27,209 nt of DNA from an uncultured bacterium (GCA_938003565.1 CALKYB010000300.1:1-27209); one strand, 5' to 3'. Shown: positions 3,595 through 13,762, counted from the stretch's first letter. Program-made: numbers and translations. Notes: generated from the letters alone by a model not told the origin.

Positions 3595-4848
3595 TTAATG
3601 CAGGCCTACGAGTCTTTTCATTTTCCCAAAGACCCCCTGAGGACTGACTTTGATTTCTCCACGCTTAAACCTCACCATATCCTGGGTCAGTTCACGAATA
3701 ACAGACCGAACAGGTTCTTCAGCAAGATCGTAAAAGGACACTCCAGGCGCACCCCATCTCCTACCAGATTCCGAGAACTGAATTGTATGCAAAGGCATTG
3801 ACTCAGGAAACAATCCACAATCGTCACACTCATCAGAAACATCATCGGGTTGAAGTAATTTCGAAGAATAGCCATTCATGACTAAACGCCATTTTGCAAA
3901 GTCGAACTCCTCAGAATCATCAGTTTCTCTAGAAAGCCGTCGCAGACTATCAATCGTTCTACGCAAACTCATGGCATCATCATCAGTAACCAGAACAACG
4001 TCCTGACAGAAAGGCAATGTAGCGAAATGAGCAATTCCCCAAGACCTTCCAAGATCCACTACTACTACATCAAAATTATCCTGAAGTAGTGGAAGTAAAC
4101 TCTCAATAAAGGCCTGAGCACTTGGGGCACCCTCAAGTACGTCCGCTTTGAAATGAAAACTTTCGTGATAATTCTCTGGCTGCCCAACGATTGAAATAGA
4201 TCGCTCTTCGCCCTCAATATTCGCTAGACACTCTGAGAGTCTATAGACTGGTACTTGACCTTGTCTCATTAATTCAGTGACGACAGAACGACGTCCGGAG
4301 GGAATTCTCGCCCAGTCGGTAAGCTGTGGGTTGATATCGTCTAAATCAAGAATAACAACAGAAAGTTCGTGCTCTGCCCAACAGGTCGCCATCGCAGCCG
4401 CAAGAGTAGACGCTCCCACTCCTCCTTTTAGTTGAGCAACAGCCACAATCCCCTCACCATTACGCCCAGAAACCCTTGTCTTTTTCTGATTGTCTAAAAG
4501 GAAGCTAGAAATGCTTGCGATATCCGCAACAGGCATAACAGTAAGACCTAGAGCTCTCCTAAGTTTTACCGCTTCCAAAGCATAAGTATCATTCTGAAGA
4601 ATAATACCCAGAGCGGAACGAGGATATGTATTTCGAACTACCTCACATACTTCCTCACAGTTCTCAAAGCAGCCTGGACCTACAAATACTATATCCGGGG
4701 AAATCCCTGCATTTCTTGATTTGAGAACTTCGAGGTCACAACTCTCAAGCTGAACTCGTCGAAGACCAGACTGTTTTACAGCTTCGTTGACACGAGACTC
4801 GAGTGCAGCAATTAAATCTGCAGACTGGTCAATTACTAGTATCTCCAT
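3595..4848 (-). CDS. CpaE/TadZ-like MinD/ParA-fold pilus localisation protein with N-terminal pseudo-receiver
   Basis: Deviant Walker A KGGVGAST (CpaE/TadZ type), ILDLD and DVVVVDLG motifs. The N-terminal REC-like segment has PDIVFVGPG, with no phospho-Asp. Lies downstream of tadA/B/C-like genes. Confidence 0.8.
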   Translation of the reverse strand: MEILVIDQSADLIAALESRVNEAVKQSGLRRVQLESCDLEVLKSRNAGISPDIVFVGPGCFENCEEVCEVVRNTYPRSALGIILQNDTYALEAVKLRRALGLTVMPVADIASISSFLLDNQKKTRVSGRNGEGIVAVAQLKGGVGASTLAAAMATCWAEHELSVVILDLDDINPQLTDWARIPSGRRSVVTELMRQGQVPVYRLSECLANIEGEERSISIVGQPENYHESFHFKADVLEGAPSAQAFIESLLPLLQDNFDVVVVDLGRSWGIAHFATLPFCQDVVLVTDDDAMSLRRTIDSLRRLSRETDDSEEFDFAKWRLVMNGYSSKLLQPDDVSDECDDCGLFPESMPLHTIQFSESGRRWGAPGVSFYDLAEEPVRSVIRELTQDMVRFKRGEIKVSPQGVFGKMKRLVGLH

Positions 4849-4965
4849 AAGCTTGTGCTCTTCCGCATATTGATAGGTTAAGAATCGGGCTCAACTAGCT
4901 CCGAATAAGGGAGCTGTTATTTAGATGCGTTTAAGGACAACAGGGCCCAAAAAATTTAAGGTAAA

Positions 4966-4982
4966 TTGCATTTAAAATGCAA
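4966..4982. promoter_or_regulatory. Perfect 17-bp palindrome TTGCATTT-A-AAATGCAA upstream of the cpaE-like gene
   Basis: Read directly. On the minus strand it overlaps TTGCAT-N18-TAAATT, a sigma70-like promoter. Confidence 0.5.
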
Positions 4983-4999
4983 GAATATTTGCTCTAAAT

Positions 5000-5404
5000 C
5001 TAGGGGTTCTTTTTTGGGGAGCAAACCCCTATCAAAAGTTTGCCTAGGTCATCTGGGACAAAGGGCTTCTGTAAAAAAGCGTCAGCCCCTTGCATTCGTG
5101 CCCACTCTCCGGCTTCAGCCGCATCCTCCGAGGACACGATAATCACTGGGACAGAAGGTCTAAGCTTTTTAACCTCCCGACAAATCTGAAAACCATCAGA
5201 AACAGAATTGCCATCATCATCCAGTAGACACAAATCGACTAAAACCACATCAGGATTATCCTCATTCAAGATTTGGTCTACGCCTTTAGATATAACGTTA
5301 TAAACAATTGGAGTACAACCCAACGCGGAAACGATCCCTGCTATCACATCAGCTTGCGTAGGAGAATCTTCAATAATCAAAATTCTAGTTGATTCAATAT
5401 CCAC
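5000..5404 (-). CDS. Stand-alone response regulator receiver, PilH-like
   Basis: ILIIEDSPT, DVVLVD (phospho-Asp), DGFQICRE, PVIIVSS, EWARMQGADAFLQKP; GTG start with AGAAGG upstream. Confidence 0.9.
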   Translation of the reverse strand: MDIESTRILIIEDSPTQADVIAGIVSALGCTPIVYNVISKGVDQILNEDNPDVVLVDLCLLDDDGNSVSDGFQICREVKKLRPSVPVIIVSSEDAAEAGEWARMQGADAFLQKPFVPDDLGKLLIGVCSPKKNP

Positions 5405-5417
5405 AGTTATAAGCCTT

Positions 5418-6203
5418 CTAACTTAACATCAACAAACCAGCACCAGTTCCAAGTAAAACGAATAGAACAATCACAGAACCTAAGGCAACATACATTCTCG
5501 AATTAAAAGACTCTTTTAACTGAAAAACCGCTTCCTGTTCAACATAAAAAATCTCCAGAGAATCTTTGCCACGCTCTGGCTCGCTATACCACTTCAGAAT
5601 TGCTTTAATCAGTTTTGAGACTGAGTCGAATGGCGCCAACTCTTTTACAAGCTTTACTGACATCTTAAAACTATCTTTCTCCTTGAGGGAGAATATGCCC
5701 GTCTCTAGCAACGGCCGAATTCTGTTCTGTCGATTATCCCCCGGCAAAGCATCGCAAACATCACGAAGAATATGTTTGACCGATTCATCTGCTCGAACCC
5801 GGATCGTCAGGAGAAACGCCGTCAAAGGTATCTCTCGATCATAACTTCTCTCGATCGAACTTCGAAGATATCGTAATGCAATCTTTGGCAAAATCGCAGC
5901 CAAAACTAAAACCAGTAAAGTAACAATCAAAGCATTAAACGCTGGGTAGAGAACCCAAACCAAAGCGGAGAACAAAAGACCTGCAAAAATTCCTATTCCT
6001 TGACAAAAACTGACAAACATCTCTGCTTTGTAAACATCCTCCACGGTGGTTAATCGATCTATTATACGCGCCACTACCCTTGAGTAGCTAACTTTCACAT
6101 TTGGACGAAATCTATATCGTTCGATCATCTTCTCTCGTTCCAAATCCAACACCAACCACAAGAAAAAGAACAAAGCTAAAGCCAATAGAGTAAAATTCAT
6201 CAC
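5418..6203 (-). CDS. TadC-like (type II secretion system F family) inner-membrane platform protein
   Basis: TM pair followed by RYLRSSIERSYDREIPLTAFLLTIRVRADES, matching the T2SS-F pattern, and a C-terminal TM. Probable ATG at 6200-6198 overlaps the upstream TGA (TGATG). Confidence 0.65.
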   Translation of the reverse strand: MMNFTLLALALFFFLWLVLDLEREKMIERYRFRPNVKVSYSRVVARIIDRLTTVEDVYKAEMFVSFCQGIGIFAGLLFSALVWVLYPAFNALIVTLLVLVLAAILPKIALRYLRSSIERSYDREIPLTAFLLTIRVRADESVKHILRDVCDALPGDNRQNRIRPLLETGIFSLKEKDSFKMSVKLVKELAPFDSVSKLIKAILKWYSEPERGKDSLEIFYVEQEAVFQLKESFNSRMYVALGSVIVLFVLLGTGAGLLMLS

Positions 6204-7030
6204 ACCCTCCCGATGGCTCGGTCAGCGAGATCAAAACACACGGTTAAGGCAAAGAACTGCAATATAACAAACATCTCAACCAATGGAATATGCTTCACAC
6301 TAGGAATAAAACTTGCGGCTAGAAGATCAATACAAAGAATAATAAACCCAACAGCTCCGCTGATCACATAAAGTGTTTTCCTAGCGACATTCCTATCTAC
6401 TAAAGACTCACAAATAGGAGATAAGTAGCGAAGGAGTCTAGCAATACCCTCTTTCTGTAAGCTCTCCACTCCTGATAACAAGAAAATTGAAGTTGAAAAT
6501 ATTTGCGCTTCCCTGCCTGCTATTGTTTTATTGAGGCCAAGAATCGACTGCTTAAGGGACTGATTATTGGTTAAATCTCGAAGCTCCTTTCGCAAGAAAC
6601 CCCCTTTCGCAGTTTCAAGCGAATATTCAAACGCAGTTTCTACACTCTTACCTTTGGATGTTAGAGCATCTAATTCTTTAACAAAATCTACCAGCTGAGA
6701 AGCAAACCTCACCCTTCTGTTGATACTCTTCCAACGAACAAAACGAACCATTAGAAGGTACCCTGTCAAAACAGCTGCTGAGAATCATGAAACTAAGCTG
6801 AAAAGAAGTGTAAAAATAAGACCAATGGCTACCGAAAAAAACAAGCTTATAAAAAACCATGTATAAGATAGTTTTCCTAGACCAGCTCTAAAAAGTCTCA
6901 CAAACCAATAGGAATTCTCATCTCTATCCGGTTTCCAGAGACCTTTAAAAGTTCTACCCAAACGACTCGGCATTGTCATTTCAGAGCGACTTCGAACCTG
7001 TAGTAAATGGAGACGATAAGATTCCCTCAT
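6200..7030 (-). pseudogene. TadB-like T2SS-F protein (276 codons) interrupted by one in-frame TGA at 6785-6787
   Basis: ORFs 6785..7030 and 6200..6769 are in the same frame. The joined reading ...LLFSLVS*FSAAVLTGYLLMVRFVRWKSINRRVRFASQLVDFVKELDALTSKGKSVETAF fits the TadB pattern (TMs, RR..F..QL.D, G.S...A). Start overlaps the tadA-like stop (ATGA). Confidence 0.7.
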
Positions 7031-8472
7031 CCATTATCTCCTGAAAGAAGATCGATTTTAAATTTGGCCTTTAATTTTCTAAGTAAAGGAGTTTCCTGGC
7101 CTTGAACAGACCACTGTCGTTCACCATTTGCTCTTCCCTTGAATTTTACCAAACTAGTCATTCGAAATTGTCCGGAATCAGAGGGAAGAATTTCTAAAAC
7201 CTCAAGCAACACAGGGCTGCCGGCTTCGACCCCTATTTTCAACACAATCGAAAAGGTGCGAGATATTCGTCGAACAATACTCTCTTCAGATGCAAAATCT
7301 CCTCGCATCACAAAATCTACAAACTTCCACAGCCCATCTTTTCCAGTATTAGAATCAATCGTCGTGACCGCTCCATTGAATCCCTGCTCAACTAGACTGA
7401 GAAAAGTCCCTGCCTCAGCTCCTCTCAACTCGTCTAAATACATTCTATGTGGAGCTCTTTGAACTGCAAATCTTAGAGTATCATTGGCTTCTTTAACAGT
7501 ATAACCATTGTTAAAAATCAACTTCTCCATTTGAGGATTTGCAATAAGAACCTCCGGCAGTTCCTCTACGGTCAGTATTCTCTCATTCGAGGATACTGCA
7601 TTTAGAAGTGAGCCGGCCAAAGCACTTCGCATACTATCTTTAGGACCAACGATCAGCACATTCTCCGCAGCTGTTGAACTCACTTCAGTCAACCAAGAGG
7701 CGAGTCCTGCCGGTAGAAACTTATCGGTTAGCAAATTGTAAAACGTAACCTGTATGGGCCTGGGCACACGCAAACAAAGGCGAGGAAGATTCTCCGAGTT
7801 AGGACCATCGGAGACAATGCTACAAAGCAGCTTCTGCTCATCGCCAATTAGAAACAATGAACGACCCGAAACTTCCTCTGGATCGCTTGGAGCACGATGA
7901 CGCAACAACTTTAAAAATAACTTATACTCAACAGGTGACTTAAATACGACAGCTGTCTTTTCCAATTTGGAATTTTTTCGAACGCTAACACTATTGTAAT
8001 CATCCACATATATCTCGGTTACCGTTCTATCTCGGATCAAAACATTGAGTGGACCAAATTTGTCCACTAGATCAAAAAAATATCTTTTAACAATCGAGAT
8101 ATCGTATCGAGCATATGAGACATTCGATGCACTTGTACGTCGGGCTCTTTCCACCGAGGTGTTGAAAACAGCGTTCCAATCTATCACCTGATCTCTTTCT
8201 TCTACTACAAGATCGTTAGCTACCCGAATCATATCCTGAGCTAATAAAGATATCTTCTTTGAAAAGGACTCACCAGACTCCTCCCACCCCCTAGAACTGC
8301 CTGCCTCCTCGCCTTCAGCACCGCGCTCGATCCTAGAGCTTTTTATAAAGCGGAAATCTCCGGAAACTAATTCATCCCTCTTCTTGGCCTGAGAAGGATC
8401 AACCACAACATCGCTAACTCTGTCATTAAGTCTTGCGCGAGGTTTTTGAATCTTTCTTAACAACCCAGACAT
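7027..8472 (-). CDS. TadA/CpaF-family secretion ATPase homologue with degenerate catalytic motifs
   Basis: FGPLNVLIRDRTVTEIYVD matches the CpaF GPL..LL.D..V.EI.VN motif. Walker A region is NVLIVGPKDSMRS, Asp box ERILTVEELPE, Walker B RAPHRMYLDELRGAEA, His-box region GFNGAVTTIDS. Confidence 0.85.
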   Translation of the reverse strand: MSGLLRKIQKPRARLNDRVSDVVVDPSQAKKRDELVSGDFRFIKSSRIERGAEGEEAGSSRGWEESGESFSKKISLLAQDMIRVANDLVVEERDQVIDWNAVFNTSVERARRTSASNVSYARYDISIVKRYFFDLVDKFGPLNVLIRDRTVTEIYVDDYNSVSVRKNSKLEKTAVVFKSPVEYKLFLKLLRHRAPSDPEEVSGRSLFLIGDEQKLLCSIVSDGPNSENLPRLCLRVPRPIQVTFYNLLTDKFLPAGLASWLTEVSSTAAENVLIVGPKDSMRSALAGSLLNAVSSNERILTVEELPEVLIANPQMEKLIFNNGYTVKEANDTLRFAVQRAPHRMYLDELRGAEAGTFLSLVEQGFNGAVTTIDSNTGKDGLWKFVDFVMRGDFASEESIVRRISRTFSIVLKIGVEAGSPVLLEVLEILPSDSGQFRMTSLVKFKGRANGERQWSVQGQETPLLRKLKAKFKIDLLSGDNG

Positions 8473-8904
8473 TTATCCTAACTCCTTTTTCTGGGTAGCT
8501 TCATCATCTTTGGAGGCCTTATCATCGACCGTTTCAATCTCTATCTCGGTATCAAAACACTTGCTAAAAAAGAAATGTGGAACCAATGGGTAGTTTTTAG
8601 GTATTGGCCCTCGTGTCTCGCAGCCAACCAAATGATCACTTTCTCTGATATAGTTTTTCGGCAAATGAGCTTTGTCGAAAGTTCTAAACGAAAAGTCATC
8701 ACTAGAAAGTATAATACTAGATTCAATATCTTCCCGTAGTACTAAAACTTTACTAGTGGAAGCAGCTAACCTTTGTGAATTATCAACAGGAGCATGCCCA
8801 CCATTCAAATAGCCCACAATTAGACTCGCCAAGGCCAAGACGGCAATCAACGGAACCTGCCAGTAAATACCGGCCGATCTAAATATTGTAGGGTGAACTC
8901 TCAC
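8473..8904 (-). CDS. SAF-domain protein, CpaB/RcpC-like but short (N-terminal TM + SAF only)
   Basis: TM segment PLIAVLALASLIVGYL, then VLVLREDIESSIILSSDDF...HLPKNYI...LVGCETRGPIPKNYPL, which fits a SAF domain. Its stop abuts the tadA-like ATG (TAAATG). Confidence 0.65.
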   Translation of the reverse strand: MRVHPTIFRSAGIYWQVPLIAVLALASLIVGYLNGGHAPVDNSQRLAASTSKVLVLREDIESSIILSSDDFSFRTFDKAHLPKNYIRESDHLVGCETRGPIPKNYPLVPHFFFSKCFDTEIEIETVDDKASKDDEATQKKELG

Positions 8905-8936
8905 ACTAGGTGCCCAAAGCTAAAAGTTTAAAACTC

Positions 8937-8963
8937 GAGCCAGTTCACATTCAAGCCTGGCTC
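8937..8963. promoter_or_regulatory. Palindrome GAGCCA-N15-TGGCTC, copy 1 (upstream of the Tad-like cluster)
   Basis: gagccag-ttcacattcaagc-ctggctc, 32 nt before the GTG of the SAF gene. Confidence 0.45.
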
Positions 8964-9128
8964 TTCTATGCTGATAGTTTGGATTAGGCGAAGTTCGTTA
9001 TAGATTCCGAAACTCCTAGGCAGCGATAAGTATCTGTATTTACAAGACTTACCACGGGCAAATAGTCATTTTCGCCGTAGCCACAATTATAATTTTGCTA
9101 CACAACACCTAGAGATAGGATACTTTTG

Positions 9129-10295
9129 CTAGCTAAGAGCACTTCTAGGGGATAGTCGATTGCTATACCACATCCCTAGCCAAGTAAGCCCCAACAAAAG
9201 AGGAACCCATATTCCAGTAAGTAAACTAGGGTTCAATGAAGTTATAAAAACTCCAGCGATATTCAACACAATCAGTAAATATACATCAAAGCGCTTTTCA
9301 GAAAATTCAAGATCTATACGGGATATCCTACTAAACAAATAAAGGGAAAGGGGCAGCAATAGAGTATACTCGTAGAAAAAAATATACGGACAAAATAGAG
9401 AGCTTAGTAGCAAGGTAAGTAAGAAACCATTATTATCTAGTTTCAACTTACCCTTGAGAAATAGTAACGTAACCAGCAGAATTGCCCCACCTGGCAATAT
9501 GAAACTAGGCCAACCATATATTTCGCCTGTCACATTTTGAAGAAACAGTTTCAAAACTGAGGGCAGAGATGAATTTACGTAGTTAAGTGGATTTAGTTCA
9601 ATACTCCGCCAATTGTAAAATATCTCTGGCCGCAGCACTAGAACAGCTCCATTTAGAAATAGAAATCCAAGCAAGCCAGAAACCAGAAAAACATAGTTTC
9701 TCCGCTTAAAACTCTCCAAAATCAGCAATAAACCTAGTAAGAATACACCTTGGGGTTTTATACTTAAAACCGAACAGGCAATCCCAGCTAGCAGAGGGCG
9801 TGAATAGAAATTCTTGAAAGTAAACAAACAACAAAACAAAAGTAGGAAGGAGTTTTGCCCTACATGAAGGAGATGAAATATAGGTTGGTGCAATATAGCA
9901 AGTAAACTTAACACTCCAAAAGAACATTTACTGTTAAGGAATATATCTCGGAACGAGACTACTGAGAGGAGTAAAAACAAAACAGTTGAAAACTTCCAAA
10001 TCAATGTGGAAACAATAAAAGTTGAGGAGAAAAAGGGAATAAATATCGGAATGCTCCAAGGCGGATTTAGAAAAACTTGAGGCGAAGTCTGCGAGCTATT
10101 CTCCAACTGCTGTACCTCTAGTATTCTCTCTGGATCGTAGGGATTCTCTCCATTGACTATATTTTGAACACCAGCCCAAAAAGCAATTGAATCTTTCTTT
10201 CCAAATTCAGACACCCCAAAGAATAAATCCAAGGACCACAAAAGTGCAGTGAGACACACTAGCAAAACAGTAAAAACATATTTTTGTGAATTCAT
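9129..10295 (-). CDS. GT87/DUF2029-like GT-C fold polyprenol-phosphate glycosyltransferase
   Basis: DSIAFWAG..GENPYD, FLNPPW, GQNSFL, LSIKPQ and FFYEY motifs; multi-TM. Start reassigned to ATG 10295 (MNSQK) because AAGGTGG precedes it and the longer ORF overlaps the upstream gene. Confidence 0.8.
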   Translation of the reverse strand: MNSQKYVFTVLLVCLTALLWSLDLFFGVSEFGKKDSIAFWAGVQNIVNGENPYDPERILEVQQLENSSQTSPQVFLNPPWSIPIFIPFFSSTFIVSTLIWKFSTVLFLLLSVVSFRDIFLNSKCSFGVLSLLAILHQPIFHLLHVGQNSFLLLFCCLFTFKNFYSRPLLAGIACSVLSIKPQGVFLLGLLLILESFKRRNYVFLVSGLLGFLFLNGAVLVLRPEIFYNWRSIELNPLNYVNSSLPSVLKLFLQNVTGEIYGWPSFILPGGAILLVTLLFLKGKLKLDNNGFLLTLLLSSLFCPYIFFYEYTLLLPLSLYLFSRISRIDLEFSEKRFDVYLLIVLNIAGVFITSLNPSLLTGIWVPLLLGLTWLGMWYSNRLSPRSALS

Positions 10296-10305
10296 TAAAA
10301 CCACC

Positions 10306-12057
10306 TTAGCTGTCGCAAAAATACTCTTTCTTAAAAGCTTTATAATCAATATCTGAGAAAATTTGAACAGGAGTAGTTTCCGGAAAACCAAGAGAAAGAT
10401 CGAACACCTTAAGGCTTCTCTCTTCAACACTATAGTTATATTTCCTATCGCCTCGCACCACTACGATTTCAGCACTCCCGTAGGGTTGGGCAAGAAGGTG
10501 GCAATCGCTATAAACTGAGGAAGATTCGTTTCGAACTAAAGAAGAAAAAGATTTAGTCCCCTCGGCTCCATTTAGCAAATCGATCACCGTTTCAGGAAAA
10601 TGGGATAGGCCAATTCGACTATCAATCACTTGCCCCACTCGATATTTCTTAAGGTCCTCTACTGGTGGTAAGTATAAAAAGGGAACTAAAAAATTCTCAG
10701 ATTTAGCGAGCTGATCGTTCGTAGTGTTGCCGTGAATACCAACTGGCCATGAATGGTCCCCATAAATAAACAAATGGGTTTTATCATTTCTATATTTTTT
10801 AAATTCTTCATAAAACACATTCAAGCAATGATCTTGTTGCACAAAGGAGTTTAGATAGGCTTCAATAAAGTTAGTATAAGGTTGAAAAGGATTTAATTTC
10901 TCATACTTTTTAAGCCCTCTAAAAGGATAGTGATGAGAACTAACCTTTAAATAGACCAGCTTGGAGCTAACGCCTGCATAATTATTTCTCAAGTGCTCAA
11001 AAGCCTTTGGGTAGAAAACACAATCGTCAACCCCCCACTTATGAATCACGGACTTATCTTCTGCAATGGAAGCATCATGCAATTCACTAAAGCCAATTTT
11101 CTTAATAGTAGCATCTAAGTTAGTATATTTGGGATTTGAGAAGGCCCAATAGAAAATAGTATCGTAGTCAGACTGTTTCAAAATTTCTGGCAAGCATAAG
11201 TTACTTATCTTGTTTGGGGTGTATGATAGAGATCTCGAAATGTTGTTTGTTATACCGCAAAGAGACGAAATTATTGAACGATTAGACTGTATAGAATTGC
11301 TCCAAGCGTACGGGAAAAAAACACCGTCTTTTGCGATTTTTTTCAACTCTGGCATATATTCCCCATCATAGATTTTCCCATCTATTGTAGGCGCAGAGTT
11401 GAGGGCTACTGAGTTTGCTGACTCAATCTGAAGTACAAATACACTCTCATCTGAGTTGGTGTGAAGATGGCTATTGTCGGGAATTTCAGGCAGCACGATA
11501 GTTCGATGTCGAAACAAATCTAGAGAATTCAAGATTTCCGAAACCAAAAGTCTGTCTTGAGACGGAAGAAAATACCAGCAAAATGTGAAAACTGGTAGCA
11601 AAACGAAAAGAAAAGCAGGACGAAAAAAGAACCATCTCTGACTCTTAAGATTTCCCCCCACCTTAAAATACCCCCAAGTTAAAAGAGCTAAGCCAAGTGC
11701 TAACAACACCAGTGAGATCAAAAACAGCCTGGGGAAGCTGGCCTGAAGTGTAAAAAACAAGTCGTCAAAAGAGTCAATCGCGTAGAGAAGGTCAGGCTGA
11801 GCACCACTATACTCCCAACTCAACATCAACACAAAATTGGCAATTATAACTAAAGCCAATATTGGACAAAGCAAAAACCATAACCTCGTAAGTTTTTGCA
11901 ACACAACAAGAAACAAAAGACCTATTCCAAAAAGTCCTGTGAAGTCAAAAAATGTTACAATAGCGTCTGCTGGAGCTAGTGAATTTTTAGATATTAAAAA
12001 CCAGGACGGTATCAATGCTCCGATAACAAACAATATTAATAGATTGAGTTTGAACAA
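10306..12057 (-). CDS. LTA synthase/sulfatase-like (alkaline phosphatase superfamily) membrane protein
   Basis: About 5 N-terminal TMs, then VLQIES, QSNRSIISSLCG (putative Ser nucleophile), HHYPF and YGDH metal-ligand motifs. Start reassigned to TTG 12057 after AGGTGA; the ORF track gives 12168. Confidence 0.8.
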   Translation of the reverse strand: MFKLNLLILFVIGALIPSWFLISKNSLAPADAIVTFFDFTGLFGIGLLFLVVLQKLTRLWFLLCPILALVIIANFVLMLSWEYSGAQPDLLYAIDSFDDLFFTLQASFPRLFLISLVLLALGLALLTWGYFKVGGNLKSQRWFFFRPAFLFVLLPVFTFCWYFLPSQDRLLVSEILNSLDLFRHRTIVLPEIPDNSHLHTNSDESVFVLQIESANSVALNSAPTIDGKIYDGEYMPELKKIAKDGVFFPYAWSNSIQSNRSIISSLCGITNNISRSLSYTPNKISNLCLPEILKQSDYDTIFYWAFSNPKYTNLDATIKKIGFSELHDASIAEDKSVIHKWGVDDCVFYPKAFEHLRNNYAGVSSKLVYLKVSSHHYPFRGLKKYEKLNPFQPYTNFIEAYLNSFVQQDHCLNVFYEEFKKYRNDKTHLFIYGDHSWPVGIHGNTTNDQLAKSENFLVPFLYLPPVEDLKKYRVGQVIDSRIGLSHFPETVIDLLNGAEGTKSFSSLVRNESSSVYSDCHLLAQPYGSAEIVVVRGDRKYNYSVEERSLKVFDLSLGFPETTPVQIFSDIDYKAFKKEYFCDS

Positions 12058-12061
12058 AATT

Positions 12062-12934
12062 TCACCTACCAAGACTAATTTGCTTTGGGTTACTATAGCT
12101 TTTAGCTGACAAGTTCGATGAATAGATCCCAAAAACTGAGCTGTTAAATAAGTCCTCCGCTGTTTCAAACGAGTTTACTGGATGTACAAAACTAGGGACT
12201 CCTAACTTTGAGAGTTCTTTGGCAAATTCTTCGCTCTTAGAACCGAAGGGATATGTTACAGCTGAAACCCTATTGACCTTCAAATAATCAAAAACTCGCT
12301 TTTCAGATCCCCCACTCCTATAAAGGGTGTAGATTACGTAAGGAAACTTAAAACTACCCATTGCTTCTTCTAAGTTTTTCACACCATCACCATAAATCTG
12401 TGGGACGATTCGATTCAATGGTTTAGCACTATAACCCTGAGATAGCTTGACAATCCGTTGAATCATCCTACCGAAGTCACCTTTGGTATCCAAAACCAAA
12501 AAAGCATCTGGATGTTTAGAAAACTCGAAAATTAGATCTTTGGCACTAAGGCTCGACAATCTACCGGAATACTTTTTTTGATTAAACTCTCGAAAGTCCG
12601 TCTGATCTATTGCCGCAGATAGCCCTAGACTTTTCTCCATACCTTGATGAAAGCAAACTAAGCGATCGTCTCTAGTAAACTCCAAATCAACCTCGAACAC
12701 TCTAAATCCCAAAGAATATCCCGCTTCAAAACCTTTCAAACTATTTGTGTAAGGTTCAAAACCTTCGGGAGAGAGAGCATGAAGAATAAATTTACTCTTA
12801 TCAAAAGGTTGCAAAGGCTGCTCTAAGACCTTTGAAATTCGACTGCCATAGGGGTGTCGAAGCCTATAGTTAAAAAGAAGGCAAAAAATTATTAGAAAGA
12901 CTAGTAAAAAGAGTCTGGCATTTTTATAGCTCAT
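12062..12934 (-). CDS. Glycerophosphodiester phosphodiesterase (GDPD) family protein with N-terminal membrane anchor
   Basis: ILHAL..YTNSLKGF..GFRVFEVDLEFTRDDRLVCFH and VLDTK motifs; N-terminal hydrophobic LFLLVFLIIFCLLF. Confidence 0.85.
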   Translation of the reverse strand: MSYKNARLFLLVFLIIFCLLFNYRLRHPYGSRISKVLEQPLQPFDKSKFILHALSPEGFEPYTNSLKGFEAGYSLGFRVFEVDLEFTRDDRLVCFHQGMEKSLGLSAAIDQTDFREFNQKKYSGRLSSLSAKDLIFEFSKHPDAFLVLDTKGDFGRMIQRIVKLSQGYSAKPLNRIVPQIYGDGVKNLEEAMGSFKFPYVIYTLYRSGGSEKRVFDYLKVNRVSAVTYPFGSKSEEFAKELSKLGVPSFVHPVNSFETAEDLFNSSVFGIYSSNLSAKSYSNPKQISLGR

Positions 12935-13159
12935 TGAATTAGAAGGGAAATAGATACTCTAGGGACGAGAGTAATTCTAGCCGCTAAGTAGAGAATGCAC
13001 CACCCAAAAGAAAATCCTTCACCCGCTAGTCCAGAAATTCAGGCTTATCACCACTTTAAATAAGTAAATGTCTACACATTCAGTGTCTATTTAATAATAC
13101 TACATACTGAGCCTCAATTAAATTTCGGTATAGACGACTTTTCAATCAGATGGGTATAT

Positions 13160-13177
13160 GCAGTGCGTTAGCACTGC
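13160..13177. other. Perfect 7-bp hairpin GCAGTGC-gtta-GCACTGC in the GDPD/sspB divergent intergenic region
   Basis: Read directly; function unknown. Confidence 0.4.
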
Positions 13178-13264
13178 TATAGCTCTTTAAGGGTCTTTTC
13201 TTTTCAAACTCAATTAAGTATTGAAAAGCTCAAATATGACTTCTTTTTTTTTTGGAAATTAAAT

Positions 13265-13762
13265 ATGTCAGACGAACCCACAAAAATTGATTTTTCTCAA
13301 AAAGAAAAATACGATTTTTTTAACTCGAATATTGATCAGTTCGATATTCTAATCCAACTTAATGCACGGCAAGAAGACTGTATTCTCCCTTCACACGTAA
13401 AGGGAGATCACAGTCTTACCCTCAAGATGAGCAATGCCTTTGTTTACCCGCCGCAATATGACCGACTTAAAGTCGTAGCCAATCTTAAGTTTAATGGTGA
13501 GTATTTCGAGTGTTCAATTCCCTGGGGTGCTATCTGGGCAATGTCTGCGGGCGATGAAAACCAAAAGCTTTGGCAAAAGGATATGCCCGCCGAAGTTGCG
13601 GTTAGCATTGCTAAGGACATCCTAAAACAAGCCGGAAGAACAATTCAAGAAAAATTAGGACTGGCCAAAAGCTCTAAAGAAACATTAGAGGAAGAGCCAG
13701 AAAAGAAAATTAAAAACACCGCTAAAACTAAAAAAGGCTCTCATTTAAAACGCATTAAGTAG
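13265..13762 (+). CDS. sspB: SspB-like ClpXP specificity-enhancing adaptor
   Basis: Core ANLKFNGEYFECSIPWGAIWAM, followed by a charged disordered tail and C-terminal HLKRIK resembling the ClpX-binding peptide. Confidence 0.75.
   Translation: MSDEPTKIDFSQKEKYDFFNSNIDQFDILIQLNARQEDCILPSHVKGDHSLTLKMSNAFVYPPQYDRLKVVANLKFNGEYFECSIPWGAIWAMSAGDENQKLWQKDMPAEVAVSIAKDILKQAGRTIQEKLGLAKSSKETLEEEPEKKIKNTAKTKKGSHLKRIK

What the first reader, a model, noticed from the sequence alone, without database searches (positions are those of the whole stretch)
3595..8904. Minimal, highly diverged Tad/Cpa-like machine with no pilin, secretin or prepilin peptidase
Seen: six co-oriented genes (SAF-only CpaB, TadA-like, TadB-like, TadC-like, PilH-like receiver, CpaE-like). 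The first four are translationally coupled (TAAATG, ATGA, TGATG) and the receiver follows after 13 nt. No flp pilin (no G-x-T-x-x-E-Y pattern in flanking intergenic DNA), rcpA/cpaC, tadV or tadE/F/G is in the locus. Known: canonical Tad loci carry these parts, and Tad-like machines have been repurposed in predators (e.g. the Myxococcus Kil system). Inference: either an accessory/regulatory second platform acting with a canonical Tad locus elsewhere, or a repurposed inner-membrane complex. Intact coupling argues against simple decay.
Basis: partly seen in the sequence, partly recalled or inferred. Interest (0 to 1): 0.75.

Follow-up and report, generated by a model that had tools for sequence, protein, structure and literature searches.

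The report
Reduced Tad pilus cluster, dead motor
A marine Bdellovibrio-like bacterium keeps a stripped-down copy of a Tad pilus gene cluster with no pilin genes and a motor ATPase that has lost its catalytic residues; close relatives keep these genes under strong selection, so it probably acts as a positioning or signalling module, not a pilus machine.

Summary
Six co-oriented minus-strand genes (3595-8904) encode a CpaB stub, a TadA-like protein, TadB-like, TadC-like, a receiver and a TadZ/CpaE-like protein. The gene junctions are as described, and the window holds no pilin, secretin, peptidase or TadE/F/G.

New context:
- The genome is an uncultured Bdellovibrionota MAG, 67% complete.
- The cluster belongs to a Tad-like family found across one class: its TadZ subfamily occurs in 39 of 111 genomes.
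- Many relatives have canonical ATPase motifs. Some also carry a pilin, a TadE/G-like gene and a Ser/Thr kinase.
- In the window's clade the pilin genes are gone, CpaB is cut to TM+SAF, and the ATPase site is eroded. The Walker A differs in every one of five relatives, including K->R between two proteins 93% identical.
- Selection is still strong: dN/dS is 0.02-0.09 between two sister species.
- The in-frame TGA that splits TadB-like reads GGA (a conserved Gly) in an independent assembly of the source run.
- KGGVGAST fits the normal TadZ consensus and is not a defect.
- Canonical Tad genes lie on other contigs.

Best reading: a Tad-derived, non-motor membrane and cytoplasmic complex tied to a phosphorylatable receiver and TadZ. 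It is a new variant of a known kind. An unchecked note from this scan reports a similar TadZ plus dead-CpaF pair in Melainabacteria.

The parts
8473..8904 (-). CpaB-like stub (143 aa): conserved MRVHP N-terminus, one TM segment and a SAF domain. It lacks the 150-230-residue C-terminal periplasmic region found in relatives.
   Evidence: Searches give weak SAF, FlgA and CpaB hits. The alignment shows the window clade at 124-143 aa against 284-378 aa in other families.
7027..8472 (-). TadA/CpaF-like protein (481 aa) with an eroded catalytic site. Walker A reads GPKDSMRS, the Asp box VEELPE, Walker B LDELRGAE (G->D), and both His-box histidines are lost.
   Evidence: Pfam T2SSE 29.8 bits. Alignment to CpaF 8rkd. 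Motif table. AlphaFold model pLDDT 74.9, best match CpaF at E 1e-24.
6200..7030 (-). TadB-like platform protein (276 codons). In this assembly codon 82 is TGA (6785-6787). An independent assembly reads GGA, Gly, at a position where most aligned orthologues have Gly.
   Evidence: hhalign to canonical TadB gives 93%. The orthologue passes Pfam T2SSF.
5418..6203 (-). TadC-like platform protein (261 aa from the GTG; the likely start is the ATG at 6200, which overlaps the TadB stop as TGATG).
   Evidence: (hhalign 92% to canonical TadC).
5000..5404 (-). Stand-alone response-regulator receiver (134 aa). The acidic pair E12-D13, phospho-acceptor D57 and K113 are invariant in 13 orthologues.
   Evidence: Pfam Response_reg E 4e-15. 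Alignment A6.
3595..4848 (-). TadZ/CpaE-like protein (417 aa): an atypical receiver-like N-domain without a phospho-acceptor, plus a MinD/ParA-like domain with KGGVGAST, DLDD and VVVVD. It is the best-conserved gene of the cluster.
   Evidence: TadZ consensus K/RGGxGxS/T from bioRxiv 10.64898/2026.07.08.737194.
8905..9128 (-). Upstream intergenic region, presumed to hold the promoter. It contains a motif GGAATCnATA (8999-9008) shared with two clade relatives.
   Evidence: alignment A9. Function was not tested.
4849..4999 (-). 151-nt spacer between the receiver and the TadZ-like gene, with a 7-bp hairpin at 4896-4916. It is the only untight junction in the cluster.
   Evidence: No Rfam match.

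Best explanation
The locus is a reduced, fast-evolving member of a Tad (type IVc pilus)-like gene-cluster family conserved across one class of Bdellovibrionota.

Shown:
- The fullest relatives read Ser/Thr kinase, two small proteins, CpaB, TadA, TadB, TadC, a 60-75-aa pilin, a TadE/G-like protein, receiver, TadZ.
- Across the family the three proteins always kept are the TadA-like protein, the receiver and the TadZ-like protein.
- In the window's clade the pilin and TadE/G-like genes are absent. CpaB has lost its periplasmic C-terminal part.
- The TadA-like protein keeps a CpaF fold, but its Walker A, Walker B and His-box residues are lost or vary freely.
- The two close sister species show strong purifying selection on the five genes that could be compared (CpaB-like was not covered). 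The receiver and the TadZ-like protein remain highly conserved.

Inferred:
- The complex no longer polymerises a pilus by itself.
- The TadA-like ring serves as a non-hydrolysing scaffold on the TadB/TadC membrane anchor.
- Together with the phosphorylatable receiver and the ParA/MinD-type TadZ hub, it positions or regulates something. The most plausible targets are the genome's genuine Tad or type IV pilus machinery, or cell-pole identity.
- This would be analogous to the TadZ-RomR (receiver-domain) link at the invasive pole of Bdellovibrio.
For: - Family and synteny. The TadZ subfamily occurs in 39 of 111 phylum genomes at least 80% complete, one copy each in all but one.
- Relatives' TadB and TadC pass T2SSF. 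A small pilin reaches the N_methyl cut-off. There is a weak TadE hit.
- Motif table: 13 locus lineages (plus two database proteins) read GPTGSGKT / IEDVPE / GEIRDEE / GHxGSxATIHA. The window clade reads GPKDSMRS, GPAGSGKT, GPAGSGRT, GPNCSGRT and GAPQSSKS, always with G->D in Walker B and no His-box histidines.
- G001 and G002 are 93% identical yet differ at the Walker A lysine.
- dN/dS between G001 and G002 is 0.02-0.09 for all five genes, with dS about 0.75 (0.46 for the receiver gene). At saturation, pN is 0.19-0.29 against pS about 0.8.
- MAG versus independent contig: 8 synonymous changes, 1 V->I and TGA<->GGA.
- The TadA/TadZ ML distance ratio is 3.3 in the window clade against 0.7-1.3 in canonical clades.
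- Of 128 positions invariant in canonical orthologues, 48 are kept, 13 are shifted to a new clade-invariant residue and 67 are variable.
- Fold: CpaF is the top match.
- All receiver phospho-site residues are invariant.
- The TadZ-like protein is 69% identical within the genus, against 50% for TadA-like and 32-34% for CpaB-, TadB- and TadC-like.
- TadB/C of this family were not found in four relatives that keep TadA-REC-TadZ, three of them 94-95% complete and one 79%.
- Family f9 keeps only a 448-aa, very degenerate TadA-like protein, the receiver and TadZ.
- TadZ-RomR precedent.
Against: - No experiment or expression data exist for any member.
- Inactivity of the ATPase is inferred from sequence only. 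G002 still has an intact Walker A, and several pocket residues (E297, R298, E303, R343) are invariant.
- Constraint is relaxed over the whole protein, not only the active site. That also fits slow loss of function.
- One clade member (L068) has a disrupted TadB-like frame and a 76-aa CpaB remnant. This MAG carries a TGA in TadB-like.
- dN/dS could not be measured on the window's own branch because dS is saturated.
- The genome is 67% complete, so missing partners cannot be excluded.
Confidence: 0.5

Rival explanations
1. A Tad paralogue in the course of being lost. The motor, platform and CpaB genes are functionally dead or dying, and only the receiver-TadZ pair is still used.
For: - Catalytic motifs are lost and differ in every species.
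- Evolution is about 3 times faster than TadZ.
- 52% of canonical-invariant sites vary within the clade.
- CpaB is truncated.
- Pilin and TadE/G-like genes are absent.
- The MAG has a TGA in TadB-like.
- L068 has stops or frame changes in TadB-like and a 76-aa CpaB remnant.
- Other lineages have lost TadB/C altogether.
Against: - dN/dS between G001 and G002 is 0.045-0.091 for the TadA-, TadB- and TadC-like genes, as low as the housekeeping neighbour terC.
- The frames are intact and of conserved length in four of five species 42-72% identical; TadB-like is broken in L068.
- Translational coupling is preserved.
- The TGA reads GGA in an independent assembly, and the other population differences are nearly all synonymous.
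- 13 sites are shifted to new clade-invariant residues.
Confidence: 0.2
2. The locus is still a working second pilus or secretion platform. It would use pilins, minor pilins, a secretin and the PilD-type peptidase encoded elsewhere, energised by another TadA paralogue or by residual activity.
For: - The genome has Flp (C31), TadA-TadB-TadC (C221) and three TadE/TadG sets (C12, C227, C296).
- It has one A24 peptidase (C177) and a secretin (C128).
- B. bacteriovorus Tad genes are dispersed and share PilD.
- Six-gene relatives with canonical motifs also lack a pilin in the locus.
Against: - The CpaB-like protein lacks a periplasm-spanning part.
- The P-loop of the window protein has G->D, G->M and K->R.
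- The Walker A lysine is not conserved even between proteins 93% identical.
- No secretin lies near the cluster in any relative examined.
Confidence: 0.2
3. The oddities are artefacts of metagenome assembly or of an alternative genetic code (TGA read as Gly or Trp).
For: The TGA at 6785-6787 sits where an independent assembly has GGA, Gly.
Against: - The degenerate motifs recur in five independently assembled relatives from different samples.
- The Logan contigs agree with the window except at 14 positions in 5.7 kb.
- TGA ends TadA-like and TadB-like at the same places where orthologues end (TAA for TadA-like in G002), so TGA is a stop here.
Confidence: 0.03

Closest known systems
Canonical Tad/Cpa (type IVc) pilus systems, e.g. 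Caulobacter CpaB-CpaE-CpaF-TadB-TadC (CpaF structures 8rjf, 8rkd, 9e24)
   Same: The same protein families occur in one operon. There is a CpaF-fold ATPase, two single-domain T2SSF platform proteins, a TadZ/CpaE with an atypical receiver domain, and a SAF-domain CpaB.
   Different: - No Flp, RcpA/CpaC, TadV or TadE/F/G in the locus.
- CpaB lacks the RcpC part.
- The ATPase lacks the Walker A Lys/Gly, the Walker B Gly and the His box.
- The gene order ends in receiver-TadZ rather than having TadZ before TadA.
- An extra stand-alone phosphorylatable receiver is present.
Dispersed Tad machinery of Bdellovibrio bacteriovorus with the TadZA fusion and RomR (bioRxiv 10.64898/2026.07.08.737194)
   Same: - Same phylum.
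- Multiple, dispersed Tad paralogues.
- No TadV in the loci, with the peptidase shared with T4aP.
- TadZ Walker-like motif K/RGGxGxS/T.
- A functional link between TadZ, TadA and a receiver-domain protein.
   Different: - Here TadZ and TadA are separate genes.
- TadZ keeps its atypical receiver domain.
- The receiver is a canonical stand-alone domain, not RomR.
- The ATPase is catalytically eroded.
- Whether HD100 carries an orthologue of this cluster was not determined.
Kil Tad-like apparatus of Myxococcus xanthus (PMC8460266, PMC12075869)
   Same: It is a Tad-derived system in a predatory bacterium, repurposed away from adhesion (titles and abstracts).
   Different: By those abstracts, Kil polymerises a pilus (KilP) and kills prey on contact. 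Nothing here indicates a filament.
TadZ of Eubacterium rectale (PDB 3fkq)
   Same: Two-domain architecture (atypical receiver plus a deviant-Walker-A MinD/ParA domain). The profile of the window's family hits 3fkq weakly (E 5e-4).
   Different: Sequence similarity is very low. The family here has its own invariant motifs (CWA, DLDDxNP, FHFKADV, GRSWG). Low ATPase activity and a hub role for ErTadZ are recalled from the literature and were not tested.

Membership tests
Tad (type IVc) pilus system | TadA/CpaF-type secretion ATPase (T2SSE family, CpaF fold) | tested here: met
   Pfam PF00437 gives 29.8 bits against a 24.9 cut-off. phmmer hits CpaF at 1e-8. Foldseek puts CpaF first at E 1e-24, TM 0.62-0.72.
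Tad (type IVc) pilus system | Catalytic motifs of the ATPase: Walker A GxxGxGK[ST], Asp box, Walker B GE, and two His-box histidines | tested here: not met
   The window reads GPKDSMRS, VEELPE, LDELRG and GFNG..TIDS. Canonical orthologues read [20 protein letters not shown] and GHAGS.ATIHA.
Tad (type IVc) pilus system | Two platform proteins, TadB and TadC (one T2SSF domain each) | tested here: met
   The window proteins have no Pfam hit themselves. Their orthologues pass T2SSF at 26.8 and 39.2 bits. Family profiles align to canonical TadB and TadC at 93% and 92%.
Tad (type IVc) pilus system | TadZ/CpaE: atypical receiver domain plus MinD/ParA-like domain with K/RGGxGxS/T | tested here: met
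   KGGVGAST; AAA_31 E 5e-8; the N-terminal receiver-like fold lacks an acceptor Asp. Consensus.
Tad (type IVc) pilus system | CpaB/RcpC with SAF plus RcpC (beta-clip) domains | tested here: not met
   Only the TM and SAF parts remain (143 aa). There is no RcpC hit, whereas the genome's canonical CpaBs hit RcpC at 1e-19 to 1e-21.
Tad (type IVc) pilus system | Flp-type major pilin in or near the locus | tested here: not met
   No PF04964 hit on the window contig; the only hit is on C31. No pilin-like small ORF lies in the intergenic DNA. The family-specific pilin of relatives was not found in the genome.
Tad (type IVc) pilus system | RcpA/CpaC secretin | tested here: not met
   The only secretin found is a 1094-aa open frame on C128, beside T2SSE and T2SSF genes. 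None lies near the cluster in G002, G007 or G024. The MAG is 67% complete, so absence from the genome is not shown.
Tad (type IVc) pilus system | TadV prepilin peptidase and TadE/F/G pseudopilins in the locus | tested here: not met
   The A24 peptidase is found only on C177. TadE hits are on C12, C227, C279 and C296. The family's TadE/G-like protein was not found in G000, G001 or G002.
TadZA fusion systems (B. bacteriovorus type) | TadZ fused to TadA in one polypeptide, with TadZ lacking the atypical receiver domain | tested here: not met
   The genes are separate and four genes apart, and TadZ keeps its N-terminal receiver-like domain.
Kil system (M. xanthus) | Kil-specific gene set and contact-dependent killing | not tested
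   Only abstracts were seen. No sequence comparison was made.

The most novel reading that the evidence does not exclude
The TadA-like protein, the receiver and the TadZ-like protein form a Tad-derived positioning or signalling device that no longer needs ATP hydrolysis or a filament. A pseudo-ATPase ring on a TadB/TadC anchor would recruit the phospho-receiver and TadZ to one place, most likely a pole, and so control the predator's real pilus machinery. The same kind of repurposing would have arisen several times in Bdellovibrionota. If an unchecked note from this scan holds, it also arose in Melainabacteria.
Probability: 0.3. Interest if true: 0.75.

Novelty: new variant of a known kind. Interest (0 to 1): 0.55.

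Why it matters
Tad pili are central to prey attachment and invasion in Bdellovibrio, and their polar placement runs through TadZ and a receiver-domain protein. A conserved paralogous cluster has a motor that has repeatedly lost catalysis, yet it stays under selection next to a phosphorylatable receiver and TadZ. Such a cluster would be a natural example of a secretion ATPase turned into a pseudoenzyme scaffold. It gives a concrete, testable candidate for how these predators regulate or position their pilus machines. It also gives a paired set of active and inactive orthologues for studying what a TadA hexamer does besides hydrolysing ATP.

Tried and rejected
- The search for related loci with the single TadZ-like protein found nothing. 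It worked with an alignment.
- No Rfam family, riboswitch included, lies in the locus or its spacers.
- The profile of TadC-like proteins finds no solved structure by sequence.
- A literature search for degenerate or inactive TadA/CpaF paralogues found nothing relevant.
- dN/dS between the window and its relatives cannot be used because dS is saturated. Only the G001-G002 pair could be used.
- TGA read as an amino acid (code 4 or 25) is rejected. TGA ends TadA-like and TadB-like where orthologues also end (TadA-like in G002 with TAA).
- The idea that the TadZ-like P-loop is degenerate is rejected. KGGxGx[ST] is the TadZ norm, and the genome's canonical TadZ has KGGTGATS.
- The idea that the missing pilin, TadE/G-like gene or the two small proteins moved elsewhere in the genome is not supported. 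They were not found in G000; the TadE/G-like gene was also not found in G001 and G002.
- The conserved 160-aa divergent neighbour gives only weak SspB-like hits (E 1e-3 to 6e-3, far below cut-off), so it is not named.
The second succeeded.

Full report
**What is in the window.** Positions 3595-8904 carry six co-oriented genes on the minus strand.
- A 143-aa protein with one TM segment and a weak SAF/CpaB signature.
- A 481-aa T2SSE-family protein.
- Two membrane proteins of 276 and about 260 codons.
- A 134-aa receiver.
- A 417-aa protein with a receiver-like N-domain and a MinD/ParA-like domain.

A 151-nt spacer precedes the last gene.

No Flp, secretin, A24 peptidase or TadE hit falls on the window contig in whole-genome family searches. 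The intergenic DNA holds no pilin-like small ORF.

**Where it comes from.** The window is contig C300 of a 2.35-Mb MAG in 369 contigs, 67% complete. Record titles of related loci name uncultured Bdellovibrionales, Bdellovibrionota and Oligoflexia. The run that holds the sequence is a marine metagenome.

**The stop codon in TadB-like.**
- In this assembly, codon 82 of the TadB-like gene is TGA (6785-6787).
- Logan's independent contigs of the run that holds 95% of the sampled words read C instead of A at 6787. That makes the codon GGA, Gly.
- Most aligned orthologues, the two sister species included, have Gly at the matching position.
- The other nine coding differences between the MAG and those contigs are eight synonymous changes and one V->I.
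- So the split is either a minor allele or a consensus error, not a fixed feature.
- TGA is a genuine stop here. It ends TadA-like and TadB-like where orthologues also end; G002's TadA-like ends with TAA.

**Are the parts really Tad parts?**
- TadA-like aligns to Caulobacter CpaF. Its AlphaFold model has pLDDT 74.9, with residues 1-60 disordered. It matches the CpaF structures 9e24, 8rjf and 8rkd best (E 1e-24, TM 0.62-0.72 over about 415 columns).
- The two membrane proteins have no Pfam hit themselves. Their orthologues in other families pass T2SSF (26.8 and 39.2 bits against a 25.2 cut-off).
- Profiles that include the window proteins align to the T2SSF region of the genome's canonical TadB and TadC at 93% and 92% probability.
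- The last protein has the TadZ architecture. Its KGGVGAST fits the TadZ consensus K/RGGxGxS/T given in a 2026 preprint on B. bacteriovorus. The genome's canonical TadZ has KGGTGATS. The missing P-loop lysine is therefore normal for TadZ.
- The receiver has every phospho-site residue (E12-D13, D57, K113), invariant in 13 orthologues. 'PilH-like' is not specifically supported; its best NCBIfam match is EpsW at E 1.5e-12.

**The cluster belongs to a family found across one class.** Orthologues of the TadA-like protein were found in both other genomes of the genus (50-53% identity). They were also found in many families of the order and class at 28-34% identity, E 1e-33 to 1e-69. The TadZ-like subfamily is present in 39 of 111 phylum genomes at least 80% complete, as a single copy in all but one. 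Gene maps show four architectures:
- **Full:** Ser/Thr kinase, two small proteins, CpaB of about 300 aa, TadA, TadB, TadC, a 60-75-aa pilin with a G|xxxxE leader (N_methyl at cut-off), a ~300-aa protein with a weak TadE N-terminus, receiver, TadZ (L055 (without the TadE/G-like gene), L056-L058, L060, L074).
- **Six genes plus a GT-C/PMT_2-type membrane protein** (L047, L048, L051, L038, L042, L070).
- **Reduced forms without TadB/C** (L053, L054, L059, L064, L066, L065). Family f9 keeps only a 448-aa, very degenerate TadA-like protein, the receiver and TadZ.
- **The window clade:** the window, G001, G002, and the contigs carrying P0002 and P0004. It has a CpaB stub of 76-143 aa, TadA-like, TadB, TadC, receiver and TadZ, with no pilin.

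The three proteins always kept are the TadA-like protein, the receiver and TadZ. TadB/C of this family were not found elsewhere in four genomes that lack them in the locus, three of them 94-95% complete and one 79%. The family's TadE/G-like protein was not found in G000, G001 or G002, and its pilin not in G000. No secretin lies near the cluster in any relative examined.

**The motor's active site is eroded and unconstrained.** The motif table shows 13 locus lineages and two further database proteins with [22 protein letters not shown] and GHxGSxATIHA. The window clade looks different:
- Walker A reads GPKDSMRS (window), GPAGSGKT (G002), GPAGSGRT (G001), GPNCSGRT (P0002) and GAPQSSKS (P0004).
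- The Walker B Gly is always Asp. The catalytic Glu is kept in two members and replaced by Ala or Met in three.
- Both His-box histidines are always gone.
- G001 and G002 are 93% identical over the compared part, yet they differ at the Walker A lysine.

Similar erosion is seen in L053, L054, L064/L066, L065 and f9, which are also lineages without TadB/C. L059 lacks TadB/C but is canonical. From the trees I infer several independent erosions. The supporting branches are weak, so the number is not firm.

**Selection.** Between G001 and G002 (dS about 0.75; 0.46 for the receiver gene), dN/dS values are:

| Gene | dN/dS |
|---|---|
| TadA-like (C-terminal 273 codons) | 0.045 |
| TadB-like | 0.084 |
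| TadC-like | 0.091 |
| Receiver | 0.065 |
| TadZ-like | 0.024 |
| terC (neighbour) | 0.084 |

- Between G002 and the P0002 locus dS is saturated. Even so, pN is only 0.19-0.29 for CpaB-, TadA-, TadB- and TadC-like, against pS of about 0.8.
- Frames and lengths are conserved in four of the five species compared, which are 42-72% identical.
- The clade does evolve faster. The ML distance ratio TadA-like/TadZ-like is 3.3 for window-G002 and about 2.6 on the clade's stem, against 0.7-1.3 in canonical lineages.
- Of 128 sites invariant in 14 canonical orthologues, 48 are kept, 13 are shifted to a new clade-invariant residue and 67 vary within the clade.
- This is relaxed and shifted constraint, not neutrality.
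- Signs of real decay exist in single genomes. L068 has two stops and frame changes in TadB-like and a 76-aa CpaB remnant.

**The rest of the genome.** Canonical Tad parts lie on other contigs:
- C31: Ser/Thr kinase, TadZ, Flp, CpaB.
- C221: CpaB, TadA, TadB, TadC and a protein ending in a receiver domain.
- C12, C227 and C296: TadE/TadG sets.
- C177: one A24 peptidase.
- C128: one secretin.

This matches the dispersed, multi-paralogue Tad repertoire described for B. bacteriovorus. There PilD processes Flp, and TadZ, fused to TadA, binds the receiver-domain polarity protein RomR.

**Interpretation.**
- Shown: a Tad-derived cluster that in this clade has lost its filament genes, the periplasmic part of CpaB and the catalytic residues of its motor. 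The sister species show strong purifying selection on five of its six genes (CpaB-like could not be compared), next to a highly conserved phosphorylatable receiver and TadZ.
- Inferred: it is no longer a pilus-extruding machine. It is a non-hydrolysing TadA-like ring on a TadB/C anchor that works with the receiver and TadZ as a positioning or regulatory module.
- The main rivals are slow loss of the motor and platform genes with only receiver-TadZ still in use, and a still-working platform that borrows parts and energy in trans. Neither is excluded.
- No expression or experimental data exist for any member.

**Novelty.** The parts and the system type are known. No searched paper describes this family's architecture, its three-protein core of TadA-like, receiver and TadZ, or the repeated erosion of the motor's active site under continued selection. 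An unchecked note from this scan (e1-3040056) reports an orphan TadZ plus dead-CpaF pair in Melainabacteria. If that holds, it would suggest the same kind of repurposing in another phylum. I file this as a new variant of a known kind.

Noticed in passing
window 6785-6787: The in-frame TGA that splits TadB-like in the MAG reads GGA (Gly, also found in the two sister species) in Logan's independent contigs of the source run. The other MAG-versus-contig coding differences in the cluster are 8 synonymous changes and 1 V->I.
   Followed up: yes
window 8982-9008 (minus strand): The motif GGAATCnATA, followed about 13 nt later by TAATC, is shared by the upstream regions of the cluster in the window, G002 and the P0002 contig. 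It is a possible promoter or operator element.
   Followed up: partly
It is therefore specific to this species.
   Followed up: partly
window 9129-13762: A GT87, sulfatase/LtaS-like and GDPD-like operon sits between the cluster and a conserved ~160-aa divergent neighbour gene (13265-13762). That neighbour gives only weak SspB-like hits. In the P0002 contig it directly abuts the cluster, and similar ~160-aa proteins abut it in many other relatives, so the three-gene operon looks like an insertion.
   Followed up: partly
L068:1499-3998: In the most distant clade member (P0004 contig), TadB-like has two in-frame TAG codons and an apparent local frame change near codon 82. The CpaB-like ORF is only 76 aa and has no TM segment. 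This is either decay or assembly error.
   Followed up: partly
L056:7522-8685 and L057:7277-8467: The TadC-like ORF runs on in frame into a pilin-like leader (KGQRGS[IV][ST][IL]IE followed by a hydrophobic helix). This is either a TadC-pilin fusion or an unrecognised internal start for the pilin.
   Followed up: no
L071:4427-7362 (family f9, six genomes): Here the cluster is reduced to a 448-aa protein, the receiver and a TadZ-like protein. The 448-aa protein keeps only the N-terminal half and a GAANTGKS P-loop of TadA (T2SSE E 4e-4, below cut-off).
   Followed up: partly
G000 contigs C12, C227, C296, C31, C221: The MAG carries at least three TadE/TadG sets, an Flp pilin, two CpaB genes with RcpC domains and several Hanks-type Ser/Thr kinases beside Tad genes. 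The kinase-Tad association recurs in relatives.
   Followed up: partly
L038:13696-14271: Two small ORFs that look like a HigB/HigA-type toxin-antitoxin pair are inserted between the receiver and the TadZ-like gene in one relative. This is judged by eye and was not tested.
   Followed up: no
L047:11276-12841, L070:10640-12337: A 500-565-aa polytopic membrane protein directly follows TadZ in the six-gene architecture. One member hits PMT_2 at E 2e-9. It may be a glycosyltransferase partner of the system.
   Followed up: partly
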